Below are positions 7,284-16,639 of a stretch of DNA of 32,000 nt, piece by piece. The stretch is taken from contig JASBSB010000001.1 in NCBI GenBank assembly GCA_030149205.1, forward strand, positions 510,001 to 542,000. Direction: 5' to 3'. The position numbers and the translations under genes are program-made. Each line of letters starts with the position of its first letter. Position 1 is the first letter of the stretch. Below the pieces are notes generated by a model. That model made no database searches. It worked only from the letters and a program-made list of their open reading frames with translations, and was not told where the DNA came from. The stretch is from Candidatus Heimdallarchaeota archaeon. Lineage in GTDB: Archaea > Asgardarchaeota > Heimdallarchaeia > Heimdallarchaeales > Kariarchaeaceae.

Positions 7284-8567
7284 TCAAAACCCTGTTATAT
7301 CAGGGTTTACTATGTTCCTTCCAATTGTTGAAAGGGGTCGTAATTGCAGATACGCAACCCCCAGCAAAAGACCAAAAAAGATTATCCCCATTGTAAAAGG
7401 TAGCCTGTTATCAACTGTAAATAGATAAGCCCCAAAAATAGGCCCTAATACCCTTCCAAGAGAACCTAAACCAGAGTTTAGCCCTAGTCCCTCACCTAGG
7501 TCATTTTCTGGTAAACGGTCAGCGATCAAACTTGAAAGCGCTGGTGTTAGTAAAGCTTGTCCTATTGCTAAGGGCACCAGACCGATACTAATTGTTAAGA
7601 TAGAATTAGAAAATGCAAGTATTGCAAAACCTAGCATTGTTAATGCTAATCCAAACTGGACTGTTTTCTCATCTGTTAATCTTTTAACTATTACTCTAAT
7701 TAATCCACCCTGCACTATGATTACGATTACTCCAACAAATCCGAACAGAAACCCAATTGTTTGGGGTGTGACCGTATTGTCAATGGTTATAACAAATGGA
7801 GTGAACATGGATTCAAATTCACTAAAGAACAAAGTTGATGAGAAAAACAGAAGCATAATCAAAATTATTTGTTCATAGGAAACAATTTTTTTGTATCTAC
7901 TGAAAACTGTGTTCCTCTCAGAAGAAGTAGGATAAAGCTCTTTTGACACCATTATCCGCTTTGCCCCTAATGTTTCTGGAAGGTCAAAGTAACCCAAAAG
8001 GAAGTTTACCAACGAGAGACCAACAGCAAAAAATGATGGGGCTGCGTACTTGTATTGAGTAAATCCCGGTACTGTGAAGGGGGAAAGTAACCCACCTATC
8101 ACTGGACCTAAAGTAAAACCTAATCCGAAAGCTACCCCAATTAAAGCCATTCTAACTGTTCGTTTTTCACCAGTTGATATGTCTGCGATGTAAGCTCTTG
8201 CCGTTGGTAAACTGGCAGCTGTAAAGAATCCTGCAAGTCCCCTTGCTAAATACAATTCCCATAACTGAACCGAGATCCCGAAGAGAAAGAAAGAGATTGA
8301 AGAGCCAAATATCCCTATTAAAAGAACTGGTCTCCTGCCTATTTTGTCAGAAATCCTACCCCAAAGTGGTGAGAAAATGAATTGAACAAGGGAATAAATC
8401 GCTAAAATATATCCTAACTGTTCTGGGGTGCTTTTCAGGTCTTCTAGTACCAAAAAGGGTAGAATCGGAATGATAATTCCAAATCCCAACAAATCAATGA
8501 AAATCGCTAGAAAGAGGGAGAATAGGGCCCGATTTTCATTCATCTCAAGTGGTGGAGAATTTTCCAT
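7284..8567 (-). CDS. MFS transporter, TetA/DHA1-like drug:H+ antiporter family
   Basis: IFIDLLGFGIIIPILP, motif A WGRISDKIGRRPVLL, ARGLAG, motif C GFTLGPVIGG; about 12 hydrophobic segments. Confidence 0.92.
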   Translation of the reverse strand: MENSPPLEMNENRALFSLFLAIFIDLLGFGIIIPILPFLVLEDLKSTPEQLGYILAIYSLVQFIFSPLWGRISDKIGRRPVLLIGIFGSSISFFLFGISVQLWELYLARGLAGFFTAASLPTARAYIADISTGEKRTVRMALIGVAFGLGFTLGPVIGGLLSPFTVPGFTQYKYAAPSFFAVGLSLVNFLLGYFDLPETLGAKRIMVSKELYPTSSERNTVFSRYKKIVSYEQIILIMLLFFSSTLFFSEFESMFTPFVITIDNTVTPQTIGFLFGFVGVIVIIVQGGLIRVIVKRLTDEKTVQFGLALTMLGFAILAFSNSILTISIGLVPLAIGQALLTPALSSLIADRLPENDLGEGLGLNSGLGSLGRVLGPIFGAYLFTVDNRLPFTMGIIFFGLLLGVAYLQLRPLSTIGRNIVNPDITGF

Positions 8568-8669: not shown

Positions 8670-10646
8670 TTAGAATTTGTTAAGTATGAATTTTGATTCT
8701 TGATAGGCAATTTTCAATGAGTTCACGGTAAAAGTGTTTGAAAGTGTCTGTATCCTTGTATTAACTTGTTTTATGTGAACTGAATTCATTGATGATTGGG
8801 ACTGAGACTTTGGATTCTGTGTAAAGTCAGAAGACTTACTTGTTGGCCAGATATTTGCAAGCTTTGTGAGGTCATTTTTTGCACCTGTGTCCTTGATAAG
8901 CACATTGACATTCCAGTCTCCTCCGGTGTTGAGTGATTTGATGAGGAAGTAGTTAAGCCCAGGAGTTAATGTCACATTGTTAAGTTTACCCCATTTGTTC
9001 CATCCTTTTCTTACATGGTTCTCAACATTGTTTCCATTAACCCAGAGTCTGAAGTGATCAGCACTTTGTACTGAGATTCCTATGGTTACGTCAGACTTTC
9101 CAGGGTTGTTCAAATAGAATCCAACATAAACTATACCTTTGCTATTCCATCCGAGTTGATCCTTACTATCAAATCGTGAATCCTCACCAGTAAAGTCAAT
9201 GTTTCCGATGGTGTTTCCACTGTCCTTATACTTAACAAAGTGGTGGTCTGTTGATCCATCTGTACCATAACCTGTAAATTTATCGTTTGATCCAATTGAA
9301 GGCCTATATGTTGCTTCACTACCATGACCCATTAATTTGATATAATCTTTGTAGATGCTATTGACTGATTTTTTACCATGGTTTATTCTTCCCAACAAGA
9401 AGAATTTGCTTGGGGAATAACCAGGTCCAGGAAAAGTACCAGATGTTGTTCCTGAAGAGTCAGCTGAATTCCTGTAAACCATTGCATTAGGATTGGATGT
9501 TGTCTGAGCGGTTTTAGGTGGACTAACTACCCATCTTGATTGAAGTTGAGATAGATTACCTGAATTTCCAACATCTGTGAAAAGCATTTGGGCATCCCAC
9601 TTATGTTCTTCGGTAACAGATTTTAGCAATAAATAGGTGTATCCTGGATTAAAAGTGTATTTAATGGGAGTGTGCGTCCATTCATTATGATCTGGAACAC
9701 CAGATTTGAGTAAAACACCATTTGCCCAAAGTTTTGCGTTCGATGAAGATTGATAATAAATTCCAACATTTATTGAGGTTTTTGTAGGATTGTAAATGTA
9801 AACTCCAACATAAGCTGTTCCTTCATTATGCCAATTTAAAGGATCTTTATTATCAAAGGATTTCCCTGTAAAATCAATCAGACCAGGATATTTACCTGTG
9901 TCATTGTACGGAACAAATTTATTATTTGTCTCCTCATGATCCTCAACTTTAAATTTGTAGGTGTCATTAACATATGGTCTATAATTTTGTTCGGGAGTAG
10001 TTTTGGTGTTTTTTAAGATGTAATCCTTGTTTAACTTATGCCCGTCAAAAGCTCCAAGAAGGAACACTAATGTGGGGGAATAACCAGGTCCAGGAAAACT
10101 GTCCCTAAATTTAGATGCATCATTGTGTGACGTTCTGTAAACTAAAGGGGCAAATTTATCAACGGGTGTTTTTACAATTTGTGGCAGATACTTTGACTGT
10201 TGCACGGGTACAGTCTTTAGGGGTTGCAACACCGCAGAGCCAGAACCAGAGCTGGTTCCAGTTCCTTTGTATTGAACACTAAGATCTACATTTGTGTTTG
10301 AGGGAACCTCGCTTGAAGAATTACTGGCTTTTGCCACATAGACTGCATTCCCCGTTACAGGGATTGCAGAGTTTGATGTAAAACTCCATGTATATGTTGT
10401 ATTCTTTGTTTTCATCGAAATCGCCGTTGGGGCTACTGGGTTTGTACCTGCATTAAATAAAGTGATCATGGCTTGGTCATATTTCCCATTATGATTTGTA
10501 TCAGAAAATATTGGGTTGGTAGCAGTAAGAGCATTTGAACCCTGTAGTGAGGGGATCACAAGTGACCAAACCAGAGCACCAGCAGCCACAGTTAAACCAA
10601 CAATCATTATCGTTGCAACAATTGGACTGACACTCTTTGTTCTCAT
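8670..10646 (-). CDS. Archaeal type IV pilin-like surface protein with class III signal peptide and two tandem ~220-aa beta-sandwich (PA14/jelly-roll-like) repeats
   Basis: N-terminus MRTKS|VSPIVATIMIVGLTVAAGALVWSLV fits the archaeal pilin N-terminal pattern. Repeat units share VYR.S, FPGPGYSP, FLLG, IDFTG, LW.NG and PG..Y.L.KS. Six N-x-S/T sequons counted. Confidence 0.8.
   Translation of the reverse strand: MRTKSVSPIVATIMIVGLTVAAGALVWSLVIPSLQGSNALTATNPIFSDTNHNGKYDQAMITLFNAGTNPVAPTAISMKTKNTTYTWSFTSNSAIPVTGNAVYVAKASNSSSEVPSNTNVDLSVQYKGTGTSSGSGSAVLQPLKTVPVQQSKYLPQIVKTPVDKFAPLVYRTSHNDASKFRDSFPGPGYSPTLVFLLGAFDGHKLNKDYILKNTKTTPEQNYRPYVNDTYKFKVEDHEETNNKFVPYNDTGKYPGLIDFTGKSFDNKDPLNWHNEGTAYVGVYIYNPTKTSINVGIYYQSSSNAKLWANGVLLKSGVPDHNEWTHTPIKYTFNPGYTYLLLKSVTEEHKWDAQMLFTDVGNSGNLSQLQSRWVVSPPKTAQTTSNPNAMVYRNSADSSGTTSGTFPGPGYSPSKFFLLGRINHGKKSVNSIYKDYIKLMGHGSEATYRPSIGSNDKFTGYGTDGSTDHHFVKYKDSGNTIGNIDFTGEDSRFDSKDQLGWNSKGIVYVGFYLNNPGKSDVTIGISVQSADHFRLWVNGNNVENHVRKGWNKWGKLNNVTLTPGLNYFLIKSLNTGGDWNVNVLIKDTGAKNDLTKLANIWPTSKSSDFTQNPKSQSQSSMNSVHIKQVNTRIQTLSNTFTVNSLKIAYQESKFILNKF
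9412..10098. repeat. Perfect 24-nt direct repeat GGGGAATAACCAGGTCCAGGAAAA at 9412-9435 and 10075-10098
   Basis: Read directly; copies are 663 bp (221 codons) apart and both encode FPGPGYSP. Confidence 0.9.
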
Positions 10647-10792: not shown

Positions 10793-11998
10793 TTATAGCA
10801 AGGTTGGTATAAAATTAGGGTGTGTGTAATAAAGGACATTTACCACTGTCTGGATTGCAAAAGCTATCGTATAGAGTAGAAAAGACAAGATGAAAATCTT
10901 ACGGTTACCTGTTGGAACACAAAGAATCATTGGGTAAAGAAAGTATTGAGGGGTGATTTGTTTATTAATTAAAATGAGAAGAAGCACCTGAATTGTAATG
11001 AGATGAATGAGTTTAGGAACAGTTATGGTAGTTCGAGAAAAGGATTTAGACTTCGTATTCAAACCCAATATAAGAGGAGGCACAATTATAACCAATATTT
11101 GAATTACTACAAAAATCCTACTAGGATCGAAATTTATAATTTGGCTTATCCAGTATGCGATACTGTTGTTTAAGGTTGGTTTTAGCAAGAAATATTCAAT
11201 TGAATCCTTGAATCCTATTAGATTAAACATTAACAGCCTAAAAGGATCATATGTTCTAAGTATCAATGAGGAAAAAATTACTAGACTGACGAAAGTAAAA
11301 ATGCATCCAATCAAAGAATCGAATAAGATTCTTACTTTGGCTCTATTAGTTTTTGAATAAATCAATAAATAAACAATAAGCAAAGCTAACACCAGACCAG
11401 TGACATATTTTATGGAGAACCCTAGAGTCAAAAAGTATGTAATACGAACAAGGCGACGATTTGACAATAATTCACTCAGGGATTTAACGAGTAAAAACAA
11501 AAGTAGAACATCAATCCGCGATAGTATTTGAAAAACAATTGGAGGGTAAAAACCTAAGCTAAGTATCATACTGTTAATTAAATTCTGATTATAGAACTTC
11601 ATTTTTCCAGGTTGCAATTGTTTCTTGAGATGTTGTAATTCTCTTATGGTTAAAATATTCCAAGTCAGAGACCCAAGAGAGACCCAAAGTGAGAATTCAA
11701 ACCCGAAAGTCCTCCACAAAATAGTTGGTATGAGTAAATAGATCAAAAATCCTGGTGGCAGGTCTACATTAAATTGGAGGTATGGAAGAAGGCCATGCAA
11801 CATCCAGATTGCATATTGTTTCCAAACTACATTTATATCTGAATAATCCAAAAGTCCATTGAAATTAGAATTTGCAAATATCGTTAAACTCGGTTTAAAA
11901 TTAGATAAGAGTATAACAAATCCTTGAACCAACACCACCAAAACCAAAAAAAGGTTGGAATCAATGAGTCTTTTTAGGGTTAACTTTAGCAACCTCAT
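10793..11998 (-). CDS. Polytopic GT-C fold glycosyltransferase (GT87/DUF2029, PimE-like); start uncertain
   Basis: N-terminal TM, loop with DINV...LPY...DLPPG, RID motif, FSIKY, late TPQY motif, about 10 hydrophobic segments. Start is ATG 11998 or TTG 12025, overlapping the upstream GT4 stop. Confidence 0.65.
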   Translation of the reverse strand: MRLLKLTLKRLIDSNLFLVLVVLVQGFVILLSNFKPSLTIFANSNFNGLLDYSDINVVWKQYAIWMLHGLLPYLQFNVDLPPGFLIYLLIPTILWRTFGFEFSLWVSLGSLTWNILTIRELQHLKKQLQPGKMKFYNQNLINSMILSLGFYPPIVFQILSRIDVLLLFLLVKSLSELLSNRRLVRITYFLTLGFSIKYVTGLVLALLIVYLLIYSKTNRAKVRILFDSLIGCIFTFVSLVIFSSLILRTYDPFRLLMFNLIGFKDSIEYFLLKPTLNNSIAYWISQIINFDPSRIFVVIQILVIIVPPLILGLNTKSKSFSRTTITVPKLIHLITIQVLLLILINKQITPQYFLYPMILCVPTGNRKIFILSFLLYTIAFAIQTVVNVLYYTHPNFIPTLL

Positions 11999-13118
11999 CA
12001 GCCCATATTCTTTTGAATTTTTCAAAATTGTGATATTCAGAGATCTTGAGTGCTTCGTTTTTCATTTTTGTGAGTTGCTCAGGTTTCTCAAGTATCTCTT
12101 CAATTTTTCCCGTAATTTCTGCCACGTCGGTTATATTAGTGATAGGTATTGTATTGTGTTCAGACAGACCTGGTTCTTTGAATCTCCCATTAACTACGGG
12201 TACAACGCCATAATGCATAGCTTCTACAACCGTGAAACATAAAGTTTCATGAAATGTCGGAGTAACCATTATATCCGCAACTTTGTAAGCATAAGGTAAC
12301 ATTTCATCTGGGAGTCTTCCTGTCAGTTTAATCTTTAATTTTTCCCTTTGCACTCGCTTTTGAACAGATTTAAATCTGTAACCGGTTCCAACCATCACGC
12401 ATGTGATTCCAGGTTTAGATTGAAAATAGGCCATAACATCAATTATTGTTAATATGTTTTTTTCATTCGTAAATCGCCCTAAGTACAATAAAACTTTATC
12501 AGATTTTGAAATCTCTAATTCGTTTTTAAAATTCTGCAAAACTTGAGAATTAATATCTTGTACCTTATAAGCGAAAGGAACAACAAAAATTTGATCTGGT
12601 TTCACATGAAACCTTAGAGTTTTAGCGTAAAATTTTCTTGTGGCGATTCCAAACCTTTGCATATTCATTGTCATCCTAGTGAAGGACCTCATAAAGAACG
12701 CGGTGACTAGTCTTGGTAACTTAAAAACGAGCTCTGCTAATTCAAATTCATCATGGTGAATAAATTGATACATAGGCTTGTGGAATACCTTATTAATTAA
12801 TTGTGCATAAACAGTGGTAAAGCTTAGTGAGTTTACAATTAACAGGTCACTCATATACATGGTTTTTACAAGTTCAAAGGAGGGGTAAGTCGGAAAGTAA
12901 TCTTTGATGACAACGGGAAAATAAGGTAATCGAACCAATCGAACTCCAACTGGCGCTTTAGCCTTTCCTGGATACAATTTTTTTGGAGCTTTAGGAGCCA
13001 CAATTGTCACTTCGTGTCCTGTCTGAGCCAAAGCCCTTGCAAGTAAATCAACAAATCTAACTACTCCATCCACAATCGGAAAGTATGTGTCAGTGATCAA
13101 GACTATATTCACAGTCAT
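11961..13118 (-). CDS. GT4 (GT-B) glycosyltransferase resembling 1,2-diacylglycerol 3-alpha-glucosyltransferase (MGS/LafA/BgsB type)
   Basis: N-terminal ITDTYFPIVDGV...LAQTGHEVTIVAP; LYLGRFTNEKN; ETLCFTVVEAM (E-x7-E). Confidence 0.8.
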   Translation of the reverse strand: MTVNIVLITDTYFPIVDGVVRFVDLLARALAQTGHEVTIVAPKAPKKLYPGKAKAPVGVRLVRLPYFPVVIKDYFPTYPSFELVKTMYMSDLLIVNSLSFTTVYAQLINKVFHKPMYQFIHHDEFELAELVFKLPRLVTAFFMRSFTRMTMNMQRFGIATRKFYAKTLRFHVKPDQIFVVPFAYKVQDINSQVLQNFKNELEISKSDKVLLYLGRFTNEKNILTIIDVMAYFQSKPGITCVMVGTGYRFKSVQKRVQREKLKIKLTGRLPDEMLPYAYKVADIMVTPTFHETLCFTVVEAMHYGVVPVVNGRFKEPGLSEHNTIPITNITDVAEITGKIEEILEKPEQLTKMKNEALKISEYHNFEKFKRIWADEVAKVNPKKTH

Positions 13119-13269
13119 TCATAGATTTGAGCAGAGAATAAAGATTTTAGTGTGTAAAACATTAGTTTACCTTAAATTCGATTTAAAATTGAGAAACAGA
13201 ATATAATTTTTCACATAAATTTTGATGACTTGAGATTAACTAATTAACTTATCAAATAACGACAAGTCA

Positions 13270-14304
13270 TTGAAAATCAATATAGTTGGTGCTGGAGAAG
13301 AGGGGAAAAAATCTCACTACGGAGGAATTGAAGTAGCCCCAAAAAGGTTGGCTCAAACTTTAAGGGAGTTGGGACATGAAGTTGACTATAATGGAAAACG
13401 TAAATTGAGCTATTATGATATAATTGATATACATTTTGGCTTTAACCTTAGATTTCTTAACCGAGCCAAAAAAGAGGCAGCCGTAGTTGTTCATGTACAT
13501 AGCATTCCTGAGGATATGGTTGGGGGAATTATAGGTTTTAGAATTATCTCTCCCATTGTCTCATGGTATCTGAAAAAATTTTACCAGTCAGCACCATTTC
13601 TAATTCCAGTATCTAAATTTTGTAATGACAAAGTCAAGGAGAGAGGGATTTTAACACCAAGTGAACCGATTAGTAATGGGGTGCCTTTAAACAAATTCCA
13701 CCCAGCACTCCCTTCAGATAAAATCAAAGCAAGAAAAGCTCTCTGTCAGAAATATAATCTAGATACAGACAAGCCTATAATTGGAGGTATTGGCTCTCTT
13801 ATGCCAAGAAAGGGAGTGAAAGATTTTAAGCGCTTAGCACAAAAATTTCCAGAGTACCAGTTCTTATGGGTGGGGAAAACCCAGCCAGTATATCCTAGGT
13901 TCATGTTTAATTTACATCTAGGTAAAGTCCCTAAAAACATGATACTAACTGGATTCATAGAGGATATACATCACTTTTATCATGGTATAGATCTTCTCTT
14001 AGTTCCAACCTTTGTAGAAACACAAGGAATTCCACCAATAGAGGGAGCTGCGACAAAAACCCCTCTACTTATAAGAAACATTCCAGTCTTTGACTGGCTA
14101 GAGGATCGTGAGAACTGTTATAAAGCGAATGACTTGCAGGGCTTCGTTGAACTCCTTCCTCAGGCAGTCAATGCTTATCCAGAGGCTTATCTACTTTCCG
14201 CATTAGAAGATGTTAAGCAACATGACATCACCTTAACAACCCAAGAACACTTAAAGATTTATCAACAGGTTATCAACAACTTTAAAGAGCATCAAACAGC
14301 TTGA
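13270..14304 (+). CDS. GT4 glycosyltransferase resembling the second-step glycolipid synthases (DGS/CpoA/LafB/BgsA type); TTG start
   Basis: HVHSIPEDM.G, YLKKFY, ISNGV, PRKGVKDF..LA..FP...F.WVG, ETQGIPPIEGAA, LIRNIPVFDWLEDRENCYKA. Confidence 0.78.
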   Translation: MKINIVGAGEEGKKSHYGGIEVAPKRLAQTLRELGHEVDYNGKRKLSYYDIIDIHFGFNLRFLNRAKKEAAVVVHVHSIPEDMVGGIIGFRIISPIVSWYLKKFYQSAPFLIPVSKFCNDKVKERGILTPSEPISNGVPLNKFHPALPSDKIKARKALCQKYNLDTDKPIIGGIGSLMPRKGVKDFKRLAQKFPEYQFLWVGKTQPVYPRFMFNLHLGKVPKNMILTGFIEDIHHFYHGIDLLLVPTFVETQGIPPIEGAATKTPLLIRNIPVFDWLEDRENCYKANDLQGFVELLPQAVNAYPEAYLLSALEDVKQHDITLTTQEHLKIYQQVINNFKEHQTA

Positions 14305-14317
14305 AATTGTTCAGCCT

Positions 14318-15142
14318 ATGGTAGATGAAATAGATGATGTCAGATCACAATTTGAATTGCGAATCCAGCAATGGCCCCCAAAATACAAAAACGGTGTGGT
14401 TGGTACCCGGGCAAATCTATTTTACTTTAACACAAAGAAATTTTTACAATCGATTGGAAGGTTAATTTATAGAACAAAATACGAAAACGAACTTGTATTA
14501 AAGAGAATGGAAGAAAGAAAGAAAGGATTCATTTTTATAGCAAATCATACTTCTGGGTTTGACCCTGTTTTTGTGATCGGTAAGTTTGAGGGAAAAATGT
14601 ATATTTTAGCTTTAGATAACCCTATGTTTGATTATAGCTTAATTCGTAATTTTATGACATCAGTAGGTATCATCCCAGTGGCTTGGAGAGGTAATAATCA
14701 AACCCTATCTGTTTCATACAATATATTACAGAAAGATTATGCTTTAATTGTACTTCCTGAGGCCAATTTCGTTCATTCAAGACGAAGAATTTTTGGAAAG
14801 ACTGGGTTTGCAGTACTTGCTGCAATGACAGGGAAAGCTGTTTTACCAGTTGGAATTAAAGGTGTTGATTATAGAATCTTTAATGAACTTGGTCCTCACT
14901 TAAACAAAAAAGTCAATGTTAATTATGCTCTTCCCCGTATTGTGAAAGATGAATTTAGAATTAAGAGGGGGGAAAAATTATCCGAAGAGGTTGCTAAAGG
15001 CATTACAGATGAATTAATGCTCGAGATGAGAAAAGCTTCTAACTACGCGGGATTACGATGGGAGGATGCTAAGACAGTCTTTAAACATTACAATTCCATT
15101 GAAAAGAACAAATATACGGAAATCCTACCAGAATTTCAATAA
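14318..15142 (+). CDS. PlsC-like lysophospholipid acyltransferase (LPLAT superfamily)
   Basis: Block I IANHTSGFD (NHx4D), GIIPV, block III LPEA (FPEG-like), KTGFAVLA, block IV VLPVGIKG. Starts 13 nt after the GT4 stop. Confidence 0.85.
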   Translation: MVDEIDDVRSQFELRIQQWPPKYKNGVVGTRANLFYFNTKKFLQSIGRLIYRTKYENELVLKRMEERKKGFIFIANHTSGFDPVFVIGKFEGKMYILALDNPMFDYSLIRNFMTSVGIIPVAWRGNNQTLSVSYNILQKDYALIVLPEANFVHSRRRIFGKTGFAVLAAMTGKAVLPVGIKGVDYRIFNELGPHLNKKVNVNYALPRIVKDEFRIKRGEKLSEEVAKGITDELMLEMRKASNYAGLRWEDAKTVFKHYNSIEKNKYTEILPEFQ

Positions 15143-15222
15143 GGCCAATTTAACAGTCATAATGAGAAAATTTCATTATAATTTATGATAGACTTCTTAT
15201 TGAATTCTATTTATTATGTTTC

Positions 15223-15999
15223 ATGGAATTAGTAGAGCTTAAAATTGATAAGGATGTTGCACTGATTACAATAAATCGAGAGAAGGCTCTTAACGCTTTA
15301 AACTCTGAGGTTTTAAACCAGTTAGAACGAGTTATTGCTCAAATTGAACAAACTACATCTATTAGGGTGGTAATCCTAACAGGAGCAGGTTCTAAAGCCT
15401 TTGTTGCAGGTGCAGATATTTCAGAGATGGTCAAATTTACACCAATTCAAGCAAGAAGATTCTTAAAAACGGGTCAGAAGGTTCTGCAAAGGTTAAGTAA
15501 ATTAACCCCCGTCACAATCGCGAAAATTAACGGATTTGCACTTGGTGGTGGTTTAGAATTGGCTCTTGCATGCGACCTGAGGTTTGCTGCAACCACAGCG
15601 AAGTTAGGATTACCCGAGGTCACTTTAGGATTAATCCCCAGTTTTGGAGGCACTCAAAGGATCACAAAAATATTGGGCCCTTCACTTGCAAAGCAAATTG
15701 TATTATTTGGAGAAATGGTCAGCGCCCAGAGAGCAAAAGATCTGGGAATAGTAATGGATATAGGAGAAAGTGCAAATTTAGATCTTTTAGTTGAGAAATA
15801 CGTGCAAAAATTACTTAAATTACCACCAGTTGCGATAGATGCTGCTAAAATATCGATTGACGCTGCATCTTACCTAGATTTGGAAACTGGTCAGGAACTT
15901 GAGGTAAACCTGGCTGCAAATTGCTTTTCAACAGAGGATCTTAAAGAAGGGATGAATGCTTTTCTTGAGAAAAGAGCTGCAACCTTTAAAGGAAATTAG
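15223..15999 (+). CDS. Enoyl-CoA hydratase / crotonase
   Basis: INREKALNALN, AFVAGADISEM, GFALGGGLELALACD (first catalytic Glu), GLPEVTLGLIP.FGGTQR (second catalytic Glu), EGMNAFLEKR. Confidence 0.95.
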   Translation: MELVELKIDKDVALITINREKALNALNSEVLNQLERVIAQIEQTTSIRVVILTGAGSKAFVAGADISEMVKFTPIQARRFLKTGQKVLQRLSKLTPVTIAKINGFALGGGLELALACDLRFAATTAKLGLPEVTLGLIPSFGGTQRITKILGPSLAKQIVLFGEMVSAQRAKDLGIVMDIGESANLDLLVEKYVQKLLKLPPVAIDAAKISIDAASYLDLETGQELEVNLAANCFSTEDLKEGMNAFLEKRAATFKGN

Positions 16000-16639
16000 G
16001 ATTCTCTAATGAAAGATTAATTTGTTTTAACATATTTTCAATTTTTAATTTTAAAGGATTGGAAGCTTGAAAATCTTGTGTTGTTAAGAGATATTCAATT
16101 TGCTCTCCTAAAGAAAGTATCACATCTCTTGGTGTATATTTAATGTCTGAAAAATTATAGTCACGAAATATGTCTTGACCTAAATTTGATATAACAGAAG
16201 AGAGAAACACATTCATCTCATCTAACAACGATTCTAAAGTTGTTGAAACAATAATAGGGATATCTATGACCCCCTGTTTTCTATTATCAAATGCCATCAG
16301 AGTTAGCTCGATTGATTGTTTCATTTTAGAAATTTTAAACCCACGAAAAATGATCGTGTTTAAAGATTCGGGACAGTCACAATCACTTTTCAGGTGAGAG
16401 CGAGCTAGATCGAGTAATGAGTTCACTTGTCTATCAAATTGGTTTTGGTTGGAGAGTTCAAATTCAAGTTCTAAATTTTCTAGATATTCCTGCCATAATC
16501 CAAATTGAACACATTTGCTACTCGAAATCTTTACTGGCACCAGTTGTACAATTTGTTCACCCTCGGGTGATGAAAGTAGCAAGTAAAGTGACTTTCTTTC
16601 CTCAAATATCTCTCCATTTATTTCAGACCTCTCATTCAC
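15986..16639 (-). CDS. Hypothetical soluble protein
   Basis: 217-aa ORF with GTG start directly downstream of EamA on the same strand; protein-like composition; no family recognised. Confidence 0.6.
   Translation of the reverse strand: MNERSEINGEIFEERKSLYLLLSSPEGEQIVQLVPVKISSSKCVQFGLWQEYLENLELEFELSNQNQFDRQVNSLLDLARSHLKSDCDCPESLNTIIFRGFKISKMKQSIELTLMAFDNRKQGVIDIPIIVSTTLESLLDEMNVFLSSVISNLGQDIFRDYNFSDIKYTPRDVILSLGEQIEYLLTTQDFQASNPLKLKIENMLKQINLSLENPNFL

What the first reader, a model, noticed from the sequence alone, without database searches (positions are those of the whole stretch)
10793..15999. Bacterial-type glycolipid synthesis cluster (MGS-like + DGS-like GT4, PlsC-like acyltransferase, crotonase, GT-C) in an archaeon
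Seen: two divergently transcribed arms, GT4(MGS-like)-GT87-like and GT4(DGS-like)-PlsC-like-enoyl-CoA hydratase, embedded among unmistakably archaeal housekeeping genes. Known: in Firmicutes and Mollicutes an MGS/DGS pair (LafA/LafB, BgsB/BgsA) makes mono- and diglycosyl-diacylglycerol; PlsC forms ester-linked acyl glycerolipids; archaeal membranes are normally isoprenoid ethers; isolated PlsC-like genes have been noted in some uncultured archaea. Inference: a dedicated pathway that makes fatty-acylated and sequentially glycosylated lipids, either true ester glycoglycerolipids or hybrid acylated archaeol glycolipids. This bears directly on the archaeal-to-bacterial membrane transition in eukaryogenesis.
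Basis: partly seen in the sequence, partly recalled or inferred. Interest (0 to 1): 0.85.

Follow-up and report, generated by a model that had tools for sequence, protein, structure and literature searches.

The report
Asgard glycolipid glycosyltransferase–acyltransferase gene cluster
A Heimdall-group Asgard archaeon carries a compact cluster of two sugar-adding enzymes, an unusual lipid-type acyltransferase and a crotonase. The cluster most likely builds an acylated membrane glycolipid, but its parts are archaeal lineages of these enzyme families and nothing here shows bacterial-type ester membranes.

Summary
The five genes are real and lie at the stated coordinates, in a homogeneous 995-kb Heimdallarchaeota contig among archaeal housekeeping genes.

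- **GT4b (13270-14304):** it aligns full length with the lipid glycosyltransferase family IagA/BgsA/Dgs (188 and 157 bits), below the equivalog cut-offs. It belongs to a family found in 81 of 400 Asgard genomes, 36 of which show no PlsY.
- **GT4a:** a generic retaining GT4. Its "MGS-like" label is not specific.
- **"PlsC":** it has the AGPAT fold and the HX4D motif, but lacks the EGTR and DR motifs. Only three clusters among 1.84 billion representative proteins match it below E 1e-30. The genome also holds PlsY and two more conventional paralogs.
- **GT-C:** an orphan that looks GT87-like only by language-model features and a loop motif.

In relatives the genes recur as neighbouring pairs in different combinations: GT4a with PlsC-like, GT4a with GT4b, and PlsC-like with crotonase. 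One relative also has a lipid kinase and a bona fide GT87 beside the GT4 genes. This argues for one pathway.

My best reading (0.5) is cytoplasmic-face assembly and O-acylation of a glycosyl glycerolipid, probably ether-based, possibly a lipoglycan anchor. True DAG glycolipids remain possible but are less likely. PlsC and PlsY homologs in Asgard archaea are already published. My literature searches found no report of a link to glycolipid genes.

The parts
10793..12025 (-). Orphan polytopic membrane protein, GT-C/GT87-like. The start is probably the ATG at 11998, giving 401 aa. Its membership of the module is tentative.
   Evidence: No Pfam or NCBIfam hit. About 9 hydrophobic helices, pI 10. 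Atlas features 0.98 to GT87/MptA-type clusters. A first-loop motif (LDxxD ... G..PY..FN...PP) is conserved with the only homologs, which are in the same genus at about 30% identity. The AF2 model is unusable, pLDDT 38. In G001 the homolog sits in an unrelated neighbourhood. In G013 a bona fide PF09594 GT87 lies beside the GT4a/GT4b genes.
11961..13118 (-). GT4a: a retaining GT-B glycosyltransferase of family GT4 with an unassigned acceptor. It is the partner of GT4b and the PlsC-like gene.
   Evidence: Pfam Glycos_transf_1 and Glyco_transf_4. The EX7E motif is present in the sequence. Best NCBIfam hit is Mgs at 64 bits, not specific. The ortholog profile matches BshA, PimA and others in the PDB at similar scores. 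pI 9.5, no TM helix. Orthologs sit next to PlsC-like in G002/G003 and next to GT4b in G007/G013.
13119..13269 (.). 151-bp AT-rich divergent intergenic region, the presumed shared promoter region of the two arms.
   Evidence: Read directly from the sequence. Promoter function was not tested.
13270..14304 (+). GT4b: a short (344 aa) GT4 of the DGS/BgsA/IagA lipid-glycosyltransferase lineage, Asgard clade.
   Evidence: NCBIfam IagA/BgsA 187.6 bits and Dgs 157 bits, both full length and below cut-offs. EX7E and the R-K-G motif are invariant in orthologs. It forms a clade with a protein that passes the IagA/BgsA cut-off. Relatives occur in 81 of 400 Asgard genomes. They stand alone among housekeeping genes in Loki-like genomes. 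pI 9.1.
14318..15142 (+). Divergent AGPAT/LPLAT-fold O-acyltransferase ("PlsC-like"). HX4D is intact; the EGTR and DR motifs are lost.
   Evidence: PF01553 47 bits; TIGR00530 38 bits against a cut-off of 103. AF2 pLDDT 92. Foldseek matches GPAT1, PatA, PlsC and LpxM in the PDB, and tafazzin, NAPE synthase and AGPATs in Swiss-Prot models. Block III reads PEANF or PEGNF in all 4 clade members, whereas 52 of 70 aligned homologs have an Arg at the fourth position after the conserved Pro. Only 3 representative clusters match below 1e-30 in 1.84 billion proteins.
15223..15999 (+). Crotonase-type enoyl-CoA hydratase, a conserved downstream partner of the acyltransferase.
   Evidence: ECH_1 212 bits; short-chain enoyl-CoA hydratase 276 bits. 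Both catalytic Glu contexts are visible in the sequence. It is one of 8 ECH paralogs. The ortholog (58% identity, against 42% for the next paralog) lies 43-55 bp downstream of the PlsC-like ortholog in a second genus and on two metagenome contigs.

Best explanation
The locus encodes a membrane-surface pathway that builds and acylates a glycosyl glycerolipid. The product may serve as the anchor of a larger lipoglycan.

- **Shown:** gene content, family assignments, intact catalytic motifs and recurrent genomic linkage.
- **Inferred, glycosylation:** GT4b is the Asgard counterpart of the DGS/BgsA/CpoA enzymes. It adds a sugar from a nucleotide sugar to a glycosylated or bare glycerolipid at the cytoplasmic face. 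GT4a adds the preceding or following sugar.
- **Inferred, acylation:** the AGPAT-fold enzyme keeps the HX4D catalytic dyad but has lost the motifs associated with glycerol-phosphate binding. It would O-acylate a phosphate-free acceptor, either a sugar hydroxyl or the free glycerol hydroxyl of a mono-ether or glycolipid. The donor would be an acyl-CoA.
- **Inferred, donor supply:** the co-transcribed crotonase supplies or shapes that donor, for example by turning enoyl-CoA into 3-hydroxyacyl-CoA.
- **Inferred, lipid core:** the core is more likely the archaeal isoprenoid ether lipid than diacylglycerol.
- **Inferred, extension:** the adjacent GT-C may extend the flipped glycolipid outside the cell from a polyprenyl-phosphate sugar. 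This is the least secure part.
For: 1. **GT4b identity.** It gives full-length matches to IagA/BgsA (187.6 bits) and Dgs (157 bits), while the next unrelated family scores 36 bits. It shares a 100% SH-aLRT clade with a protein that passes the IagA/BgsA equivalog cut-off (521 bits against 460).
2. **Catalytic motifs.** EX7E is intact in both GT4s, HX4D in the acyltransferase and both Glu contexts in the crotonase.
3. **Linkage in different arrangements.** G002/G003 have GT4a, then a 150-aa TM ORF, then PlsC-like in one direction. G007 has divergent GT4a and GT4b. G013 has GT4b, GT4a, a third GT4, a DAGK/YegS-type lipid kinase and a Pfam-verified GT87. PlsC-like followed by ECH in tandem occurs in a second genus and on two metagenome contigs.
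4. **Co-occurrence.** All five genomes with a PlsC-like ortholog also have GT4a and GT4b orthologs.
5. **Membrane-surface character.** GT4a, GT4b and PlsC-like have no TM helix and pI 9.1-9.7. The median for long ORFs nearby is 6.3, and about 20% reach 9.1 or more. This fits monotopic binding to an anionic membrane face, as established for alMGS, alDGS, PimA and PlsC (my own knowledge).
6. **No polysaccharide machinery.** No NDP-sugar synthesis, Wzx/Wzy, initiating phosphoglycosyltransferase or AglB gene was seen among the window ORFs I scanned.
7. **Ether core favoured.** GT4b relatives occur in 36 Asgard genomes without a PlsY hit, including genomes 98-100% complete. This genome has a G1P dehydrogenase (395 bits) but no GpsA or PlsX was found.
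Against: - No enzyme was assayed. At 25-30% identity to bacterial relatives, the acceptor specificity of a GT4 can differ.
- GT4b scores far below the equivalog cut-offs, and GT4a has no specific affinity to any glycolipid synthase.
- The EGTR-loss argument rests on my recollection of mutagenesis of bacterial and eukaryotic GPAT/AGPAT enzymes, not on data for this clade.
- The nearest fold neighbours include tafazzin-type transacylases that do not use acyl-CoA.
- Gene order is not conserved as a whole. In G001/G003 GT4b is on a different contig from GT4a and PlsC-like. In the second genus and on the metagenome contigs, PlsC-like and ECH have no GT4 within 8-10 kb.
- The linkage evidence comes from a handful of related lineages, so it represents few independent events.
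- The GT-C homolog in G001 is in an unrelated neighbourhood.
- This genome also has PlsY above its equivalog cut-off and two more PF01553 paralogs, so an ester-lipid acceptor cannot be excluded.
Confidence: 0.5

Rival explanations
1. This is a true bacterial-style pathway. PlsY and a PlsC paralog make acyl-glycerol-phosphate and then diacylglycerol. GT4a and GT4b act like MGS and DGS to make mono- and diglycosyl-diacylglycerol. The locus acyltransferase makes or remodels the ester core.
For: - The genome encodes PlsY above the TIGR00023 cut-off (142 bits against 137) and three PF01553 proteins.
- In sister species G001 and G003, plsY lies about 4 kb from GT4b.
- Characterised members of the DGS/BgsA family use DAG-based acceptors (family descriptions, plus my own knowledge).
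- Bacterial PlsY and PlsC accept G1P-based substrates (PMC13400652).
- Five AMP-binding ligases and 8 crotonases indicate active acyl-CoA metabolism.
Against: - No PlsX, GpsA or fatty-acid synthesis route was found with the searches run.
- GT4b relatives are present in 36 Asgard genomes with no PlsY hit.
- The locus acyltransferase lacks the EGTR/DR motifs and is the least PlsC-like of the three paralogs.
- The only lipid analysis of a cultured Asgard archaeon reported isoprenoid lipids (as cited in PMC9385802 and PMC13400652).
Confidence: 0.15
2. This is a cell-surface or protein glycosylation cluster. The GT4s build an oligosaccharide on a polyprenyl carrier or directly on a protein. The GT-C transfers sugar to the neighbouring pilin-like surface protein. 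The acyltransferase O-acylates the glycan.
For: - GT4 enzymes are common in N-glycan, S-layer and EPS pathways, and GT4a matches PglH/WlaC-type and capsule enzymes about as well as lipid enzymes.
- GT-C enzymes encoded beside pilin genes are known to glycosylate pilins in bacteria (my own knowledge; not tested here).
Against: - No initiating phosphoglycosyltransferase, flippase of the Wzx type, oligosaccharyltransferase or nucleotide-sugar gene is in the cluster.
- GT4b is specifically DGS/BgsA-like, and in other Asgard genomes it stands alone among housekeeping genes rather than in glycan clusters.
- The pilin-like gene and the GT-C are not conserved next to the GT4 genes in sister species.
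- PF01553 acyltransferases act on lipids, not glycans (family definition).
Confidence: 0.12
3. Two or three unrelated units are juxtaposed by chance. These are a housekeeping GT4b, a separate acyltransferase-crotonase pair working in acyl-CoA or lipid remodelling (tafazzin-like transacylation), and an orphan membrane protein.
For: - PlsC-like followed by ECH is the most conserved pair, and it occurs without GT4 neighbours in a second genus and on metagenome contigs.
- GT4b stands alone in most Asgard genomes.
- The complete five-gene arrangement is unique to this genome.
Against: - GT4a-PlsC-like adjacency in G002/G003, GT4a-GT4b adjacency in G007/G013, and the 13-bp GT4b-PlsC-like junction here are three different pairings of the same gene set.
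- PlsC-like orthologs were found only in genomes that also have both GT4 orthologs.
Confidence: 0.13

Closest known systems
Firmicute and Mollicute glycolipid GT4 pairs: alMGS/alDGS of Acholeplasma, BgsB/BgsA of Enterococcus, IagB/IagA of Streptococcus agalactiae, Spr0982/CpoA of S. pneumoniae
   Same: - GT4b aligns end to end with the IagA/BgsA and Dgs profiles and shares their short, roughly 335-aa architecture.
- It groups with a cut-off-passing family member.
- It is genomically paired with a second GT4, as in the bacterial operons.
- Both proteins are basic with no TM helix.
   Different: - Scores are 188 and 157 bits against cut-offs of 460 and 500.
- Identity to the nearest bona fide member is about 29%.
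- The partner GT4a is not specifically MGS-like.
- The host is an archaeon whose default lipids are isoprenoid ethers.
- The cluster adds an acyltransferase, a crotonase and a GT-C.
- No LtaS-type polymerase was looked for.
Mycobacterial phosphatidylinositol mannoside pathway (PimA, PimB', PatA, PimE)
   Same: The logic is the same: two cytoplasmic GT4 steps, an AGPAT-fold acyltransferase that acylates the glycolipid head group, then a GT87 GT-C acting outside. PatA is among the best structural matches of the acyltransferase. PimA and PimB' are among the PDB hits of both GT4 profiles.
   Different: - The acyltransferase matches PF01553; no other acyltransferase family scored at E<=0.01 in the Pfam scan.
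- Similarity to PimA and PimB' is generic GT4 similarity.
- GT87 membership of the GT-C is unproven.
- No inositol-lipid genes are in the locus.
Asgard PlsC/PlsY homologs described in the literature (Villanueva 2017, Coleman 2019 and Manoharan 2019, as cited in PMC9385802 and PMC13400652; also PMC9723677)
   Same: The superfamily is the same (PF01553). The genome also holds PlsY and two further PF01553 genes of the kind previously reported.
   Different: - The locus gene is a separate, very small clade (3 representative clusters below 1e-30).
- It has PEANF in place of EGTR.
- It is physically tied to glycosyltransferases and a crotonase.
- My literature searches found no paper connecting Asgard acyltransferases with glycolipid GT4 genes.
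Tafazzin and plant NAPE-synthase-type LPLATs
   Same: These are the best predicted-structure matches over nearly the full length (TM 0.56-0.63, E about 1e-10). As I recall, they also lack a canonical EGTR motif and act on whole lipids rather than glycerol phosphate.
   Different: Sequence identity is 14-17%. The scores are barely better than for ordinary AGPATs. Tafazzin is a CoA-independent transacylase, whereas the conserved crotonase partner here suggests an acyl-CoA donor.

Membership tests
IagA/BgsA/Dgs diglycosyl-diacylglycerol synthases (GT4) | Whole-protein score above the NCBIfam equivalog cut-off (NF053513 460 bits; NF049987 500 bits) | tested here: not met
   187.6 and 157 bits. Both alignments are full length.
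IagA/BgsA/Dgs diglycosyl-diacylglycerol synthases (GT4) | Groups with bona fide members rather than with other GT4 lineages | tested here: met
   A 100% SH-aLRT clade joins the Asgard sequences with P0012, which scores 521 bits on NF053513. Sampling is limited, branches are long, and the tree used the quick method.
IagA/BgsA/Dgs diglycosyl-diacylglycerol synthases (GT4) | Retaining GT-B catalytic core (EX7E, Arg/Lys phosphate-binding loop) | tested here: met
   E250-x7-E258 and R180-K181-G182 are invariant in orthologs.
IagA/BgsA/Dgs diglycosyl-diacylglycerol synthases (GT4) | Acceptor is monoglycosyl-diacylglycerol | not testable with these tools
   This needs an enzyme assay. The family occurs in 36 Asgard genomes without a PlsY hit, which argues for another lipid core.
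alMGS/BgsB-type monoglycosyl-DAG synthase (GT4a) | Specific profile match (NF049988 cut-off 400 bits) | tested here: not met
   63.8 bits. TIGR04157 (62.9) and BshA (60.3) score about the same. The ortholog profile hits BshA best in the PDB.
PlsC / AGPAT (1-acyl-glycerol-3-phosphate acyltransferase) | Block I HX4D catalytic dyad and the AGPAT fold | tested here: met
   The NHTSGFD motif is present. The AF2 model has pLDDT 92 and matches GPAT1, PatA and PlsC at E of about 1e-6 or better.
PlsC / AGPAT (1-acyl-glycerol-3-phosphate acyltransferase) | Block III EGTR and the block II Arg, associated with glycerol-phosphate binding | tested here: not met
   The motif reads PEANF or PEGNF in all four clade members, whereas 52 of 70 homologs have Arg at the corresponding position. 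Block II ends AWR, AWK, AAR or PPS instead of DR.
PlsC / AGPAT (1-acyl-glycerol-3-phosphate acyltransferase) | TIGR00530 domain score above the cut-off (103 bits) | tested here: not met
   38 bits. The two other paralogs score 73 and 61 bits.
GT87 / GT-C polyprenyl-phosphate-sugar glycosyltransferases | Pfam PF09594 or a related GT-C profile match | tested here: not met
   No family is reported at E<=10. hhalign against a verified GT87 from G013 gives probability 2.5%.
GT87 / GT-C polyprenyl-phosphate-sugar glycosyltransferases | Polytopic membrane protein with an acidic motif in the first extracytoplasmic loop; GT-C fold | tested here: inconclusive
   About 9 helices and a conserved LDxxD...PY..FN..PP motif are present. 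Atlas features score 0.98 to GT87 clusters. The fold could not be modelled, pLDDT 38.
Crotonase (enoyl-CoA hydratase/isomerase) | ECH_1 profile above the cut-off and both catalytic glutamates | tested here: met
   212 bits against a cut-off of 27. The GGGLELA and LPEVTLG contexts are present.

The most novel reading that the evidence does not exclude
A subset of Heimdallarchaeia makes hybrid lipids: a glycerol ether or mixed ether/ester core carrying two sugars and an ester-linked (hydroxy)acyl group. A dedicated Asgard DGS-type GT4 family and a lineage-specific AGPAT-fold acyltransferase would build this lipid. A GT-C would then extend it into a lipoglycan that forms the cell surface. This would be an archaeal counterpart of LTA and PIM anchors, and a concrete case of ester-acyl chemistry on archaeal membrane lipids in the closest relatives of eukaryotes.
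Probability: 0.25. Interest if true: 0.85.

Novelty: new variant of a known kind. Interest (0 to 1): 0.6.

Why it matters
How an archaeal host with ether lipids gave rise to eukaryotes with ester lipids is an open problem. PlsC and PlsY homologs in Asgard genomes are the main genomic hint, and their function is unknown.

This locus gives one of those acyltransferase lineages a testable context. It is tied to a DGS/BgsA-type glycosyltransferase family that is widespread in Asgard archaea, and to an acyl-CoA enzyme. It has also lost the motifs expected for a phosphatidic-acid-forming enzyme.

If the reading holds, some "ester-lipid genes" of Asgard archaea decorate glycolipids rather than build bacterial-type phospholipids. 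That would temper the mixed-membrane hypothesis. It would also reveal a new class of archaeal surface glycolipid. Finally, the locus nominates candidate genes for archaeal glycolipid synthesis, which to my knowledge are largely unidentified.

Tried and rejected
- **Recent bacterial transfer of GT4b: rejected.** The word-seeded profile search found no non-archaeal relative above about 31% identity. The family spans 81 of 400 Asgard genomes with taxonomy-like clustering.
- **Contig chimera: rejected**.
- **GT-C fold:** AF2 with a 2-sequence alignment gave pLDDT 38, so no fold search was run. Pfam at E<=10 and hhalign against a real GT87 gave nothing.
- **PDB sequence searches:** the GT4b single sequence gave no hit. 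The PlsC-like single sequence gave only spurious primase hits.
- **Bacterial relatives:** the related-loci scan of GTDB genomes reached only the three sister species plus one weak Bacteroidaceae hit. It could not sample bacterial relatives. The first attempt failed for lack of conserved stretches.
- **Neighbouring ORFs not followed:** the 150-aa TM ORF between GT4a and PlsC-like in G002/G003 has its homolog 120 kb away in this genome, and I did not pursue it. The 556-aa ORF after GT4b in G007 stayed unexplained. The 217-aa ORF at 15986-16639 has no family and no conserved position.
- **PIG-A/GPI-type reading of GT4a:** considered and dropped, because no PIGA domain hit appeared.
- **Complex prediction:** not run, because no physical binding is claimed.

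Full report
**Observation.** The window is G000:C4:510001-542000, part of a 995-kb contig of a 3.3-Mb genome that is 93.5% complete.

- On the minus strand lie a GT4 gene (11961-13118, "GT4a") and an overlapping 401-410-aa membrane protein (10793-12025).
- On the plus strand lie a second GT4 (13270-14304, "GT4b"), a PF01553 acyltransferase (14318-15142) after a 13-bp gap, and a crotonase (15223-15999) after an 80-bp gap.

The Pfam and NCBIfam hits are strong. Ribosomal proteins L18e, L13 and S9, an Rpb3-type RNA polymerase subunit and RNA 3'-phosphate cyclase lie within 5 kb. Contigs of three sister species are titled Candidatus Heimdallarchaeota. GC content is even across the window. The helicase-MFS left flank is syntenic with sister species G003.

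**GT4b.** This is the most informative gene.

- It aligns end to end with the NCBIfam models for the LTA glycolipid-anchor glycosyltransferase IagA/BgsA (187.6 bits) and the processive diacylglycerol glucosyltransferase Dgs (157 bits). The best unrelated GT4 family scores 36 bits. Both scores are far below the equivalog cut-offs, so GT4b is a relative and not a member.
- A phylum-wide search found relatives at E<=1e-20 in 81 of 400 Asgard genomes. Close orthologs (55-57% identity) are in the three congeners. More distant ones are in two further Heimdall genera (36-39%). Relatives at 27-36% identity are in a large Loki-like family (49 of 135 genomes), in family f21 (4 of 4) and in a second Heimdall-class genus (19 of 22).
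- In a quick maximum-likelihood tree, all Asgard sequences form one clade (100% SH-aLRT) with P0012, a protein that passes the IagA/BgsA cut-off (521 bits). A group of Bacillota-like paralogs lies outside this clade, and the internal structure of the clade broadly follows taxonomy. Branches are long and bacterial sampling is thin, so origin and direction of transfer remain open. A recent bacterial import is not supported.
- In Loki-like genomes the gene stands alone among housekeeping genes such as LeuRS, lipoate and F420 enzymes. This suits a housekeeping membrane-lipid enzyme better than a variable surface-glycan cluster.

**GT4a.** It is a standard retaining GT4 with an intact EX7E motif. 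Its best NCBIfam hit is the monoglucosyl-DAG synthase Mgs, but at 64 bits. TIGR04157 and BshA score almost the same. A profile of ten orthologs hits BshA, PimA, WlaC and others at similar levels in the PDB. The "MGS-like" label is therefore not supported, and its role has to be inferred from linkage. Orthologs at E<=1e-25 occur in 23 of 400 Asgard genomes, most of them in the same class as this genome (Heimdallarchaeia).

**The acyltransferase.**
- PF01553 scores 47 bits, but TIGR00530 scores only 38 bits against a cut-off of 103.
- An exhaustive HMMER search of 1.84 billion representative proteins found only three clusters below 1e-30 (54, 39 and 38% identity). The next hit drops to 69 bits. 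This is a tiny lineage-specific clade.
- The AF2 model is confident (pLDDT 92) and has the AGPAT fold. PDB matches are GPAT1, PatA, PlsC and LpxM. Among Swiss-Prot models the best matches are Arabidopsis NAPE synthase and tafazzin, followed by AGPATs and Aas.
- HX4D and the block IV proline are present. Block III reads PEANF or PEGNF in all four clade members, whereas 52 of 70 aligned homologs carry Arg at that position. The Asp-Arg that ends block II is also absent.
- As I recall from the GPAT/AGPAT mutagenesis literature, blocks II and III bind the glycerol phosphate. Their loss points to a phosphate-free acceptor.
- The genome has better candidates for phosphatidate synthesis. PlsY passes its equivalog cut-off and lies 8 kb upstream of the window. 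Two further PF01553 paralogs exist, one with PEGQR.
- I found a G1P dehydrogenase (395 bits) and a divergent GGGPS-family protein. I found no PlsX and no GpsA.

**Linkage.** The whole five-gene layout is unique to this genome, but its parts recur as neighbours in different combinations.
- In congeners G002 and G003, GT4a is followed by a 150-aa membrane ORF and then the acyltransferase. An ADP-forming acyl-CoA synthetase lies upstream.
- In a second genus (G007), GT4a and GT4b are divergent neighbours. The acyltransferase is followed after 43 bp by the orthologous crotonase on another contig, seen on four assemblies.
- The acyltransferase-crotonase tandem is also present on two metagenome contigs.
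- In a third lineage (G013), GT4b lies with a GT4a-like gene, a third GT4, a DAG-kinase/YegS-type lipid kinase and a Pfam-verified GT87.
- Every genome with an ortholog of the acyltransferase also has both GT4 orthologs.

These lineages are related, so the number of independent events is small. Even so, three different pairings of the same genes are hard to explain by chance. The lipid kinase and the verified GT87 in G013 point to a lipid-linked product that is extended outside the cell.

**The GT-C.** It has homologs only within the genus, at about 30% identity. No profile hit was obtained and the model failed. Language-model features place it among GT87/MptA-type clusters at 0.98. The first loop carries a conserved acidic motif followed by PY and PP motifs. 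In G001 its homolog is in an unrelated neighbourhood. Here it sits next to a pilin-like surface protein, so a role in protein glycosylation is a live alternative. I treat its membership of the module as about even odds.

**Which lipid?** PlsY was found in 158 of 400 Asgard genomes, including all genomes of this order that were searched. GT4b relatives occur in 36 genomes with no PlsY hit, several of them 98-100% complete. The GT4b family therefore does not depend on the PlsY route. An isoprenoid ether or mono-ether core is the more economical acceptor. In this genus, however, plsY lies 4 kb from GT4b in two species, and three LPLATs are present, so an ester or hybrid core cannot be excluded.

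GT4a, GT4b and the acyltransferase all have pI 9.1-9.7 and no TM helix. The median for long ORFs of the region is 6.3. This is consistent with peripheral binding to the cytoplasmic membrane face.

**Comparison with what is known.** PlsC and PlsY homologs in Asgard archaea, and the mixed ether/ester hypothesis, are published. Their function is stated to be unknown (PMC9385802, PMC13400652, PMC9723677). My literature searches found nothing linking Asgard acyltransferases to DGS/BgsA-type glycosyltransferases, or describing this GT4 family in Asgard archaea. The library does not cover subscription journals.

The closest functional analogies are the Firmicute MGS/DGS glycolipid-anchor operons and the mycobacterial PIM pathway. 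The PIM pathway combines two GT4 enzymes, an AGPAT-fold head-group acyltransferase and a GT87. The locus fails the membership tests for each of these families at the level of curated cut-offs, so I file it as a new variant of a known kind of system.

**Verdict.** The best reading (0.5) is an acylated glycosyl-glycerolipid or lipoglycan-anchor pathway of archaeal lineage, probably on an ether core. Interest is moderate to high (0.6). The locus turns the unexplained Asgard "PlsC" question into specific enzyme assays, but all functional steps remain inferred.

Noticed in passing
G000:C4:501776-502468 (about 8 kb before the window start): An intact PlsY homolog passes the TIGR00023 equivalog cut-off (142 bits against 137) and has canonical motifs. 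In sister species G001 and G003, plsY lies about 4 kb from GT4b on the same contig.
   Followed up: partly
G000:C12:32155-32898 and G000:C4:247593-248381: Two further PF01553 acyltransferase paralogs (87 and 82 bits). The second has a near-canonical PEGQR block III and is a better candidate for a true lysophosphatidate acyltransferase than the gene in the window.
   Followed up: partly
Asgard genomes of families f20 and f7, e.g. G270:C6:56828-62954: In the Loki-like family, the PlsY domain occupies only the first 150 or so residues of roughly 400-aa ORFs and occurs in tandem arrays of up to four copies. Genomes of family f7 carry 6-8 PlsY copies. This is unexpected for a housekeeping acyltransferase.
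   Followed up: no
L017 (G013:C182:1-9000): A Heimdall relative has GT4b, an AsnC-type regulator, a GT4a-like gene, a third GT4, a DAGK_cat+YegS_C lipid kinase and a Pfam-verified GT87 within 7 kb.
   Followed up: partly
L034:3053-8765 (G003) and L037:8477-13159 (G002): An ADP-forming acyl-CoA synthetase (697 aa), with a luciferase-like oxidoreductase in G003, precedes GT4a, a 150-aa membrane ORF and PlsC-like in the same orientation. The small ORF's homolog in this genome is 120 kb away, at C4:401153-401596.
   Followed up: partly
window 15986-16639 (-): A 217-aa ORF convergent with the crotonase. It has no family hit at E<=10, no TM helix and no homolog in the related loci examined.
   Followed up: partly
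window 7284-8567 (-) and 8670-10646 (-): An MFS transporter and a 658-aa pilin-like secreted protein lie downstream of the GT-C on the same strand. The MFS is also near the GT4a operon in G003, apparently through retained synteny. A glycolipid-flippase role like that of LtaA, or GT-C glycosylation of the pilin-like protein, is conceivable but untested.
   Followed up: no
G000 whole genome: No PlsX (PF02504) and no convincing GpsA were found; the best PF01210 hit is a PanE-like reductase. A G1P dehydrogenase (395 bits), 8 crotonase paralogs and 5 AMP-binding ligases are present.
   Followed up: partly
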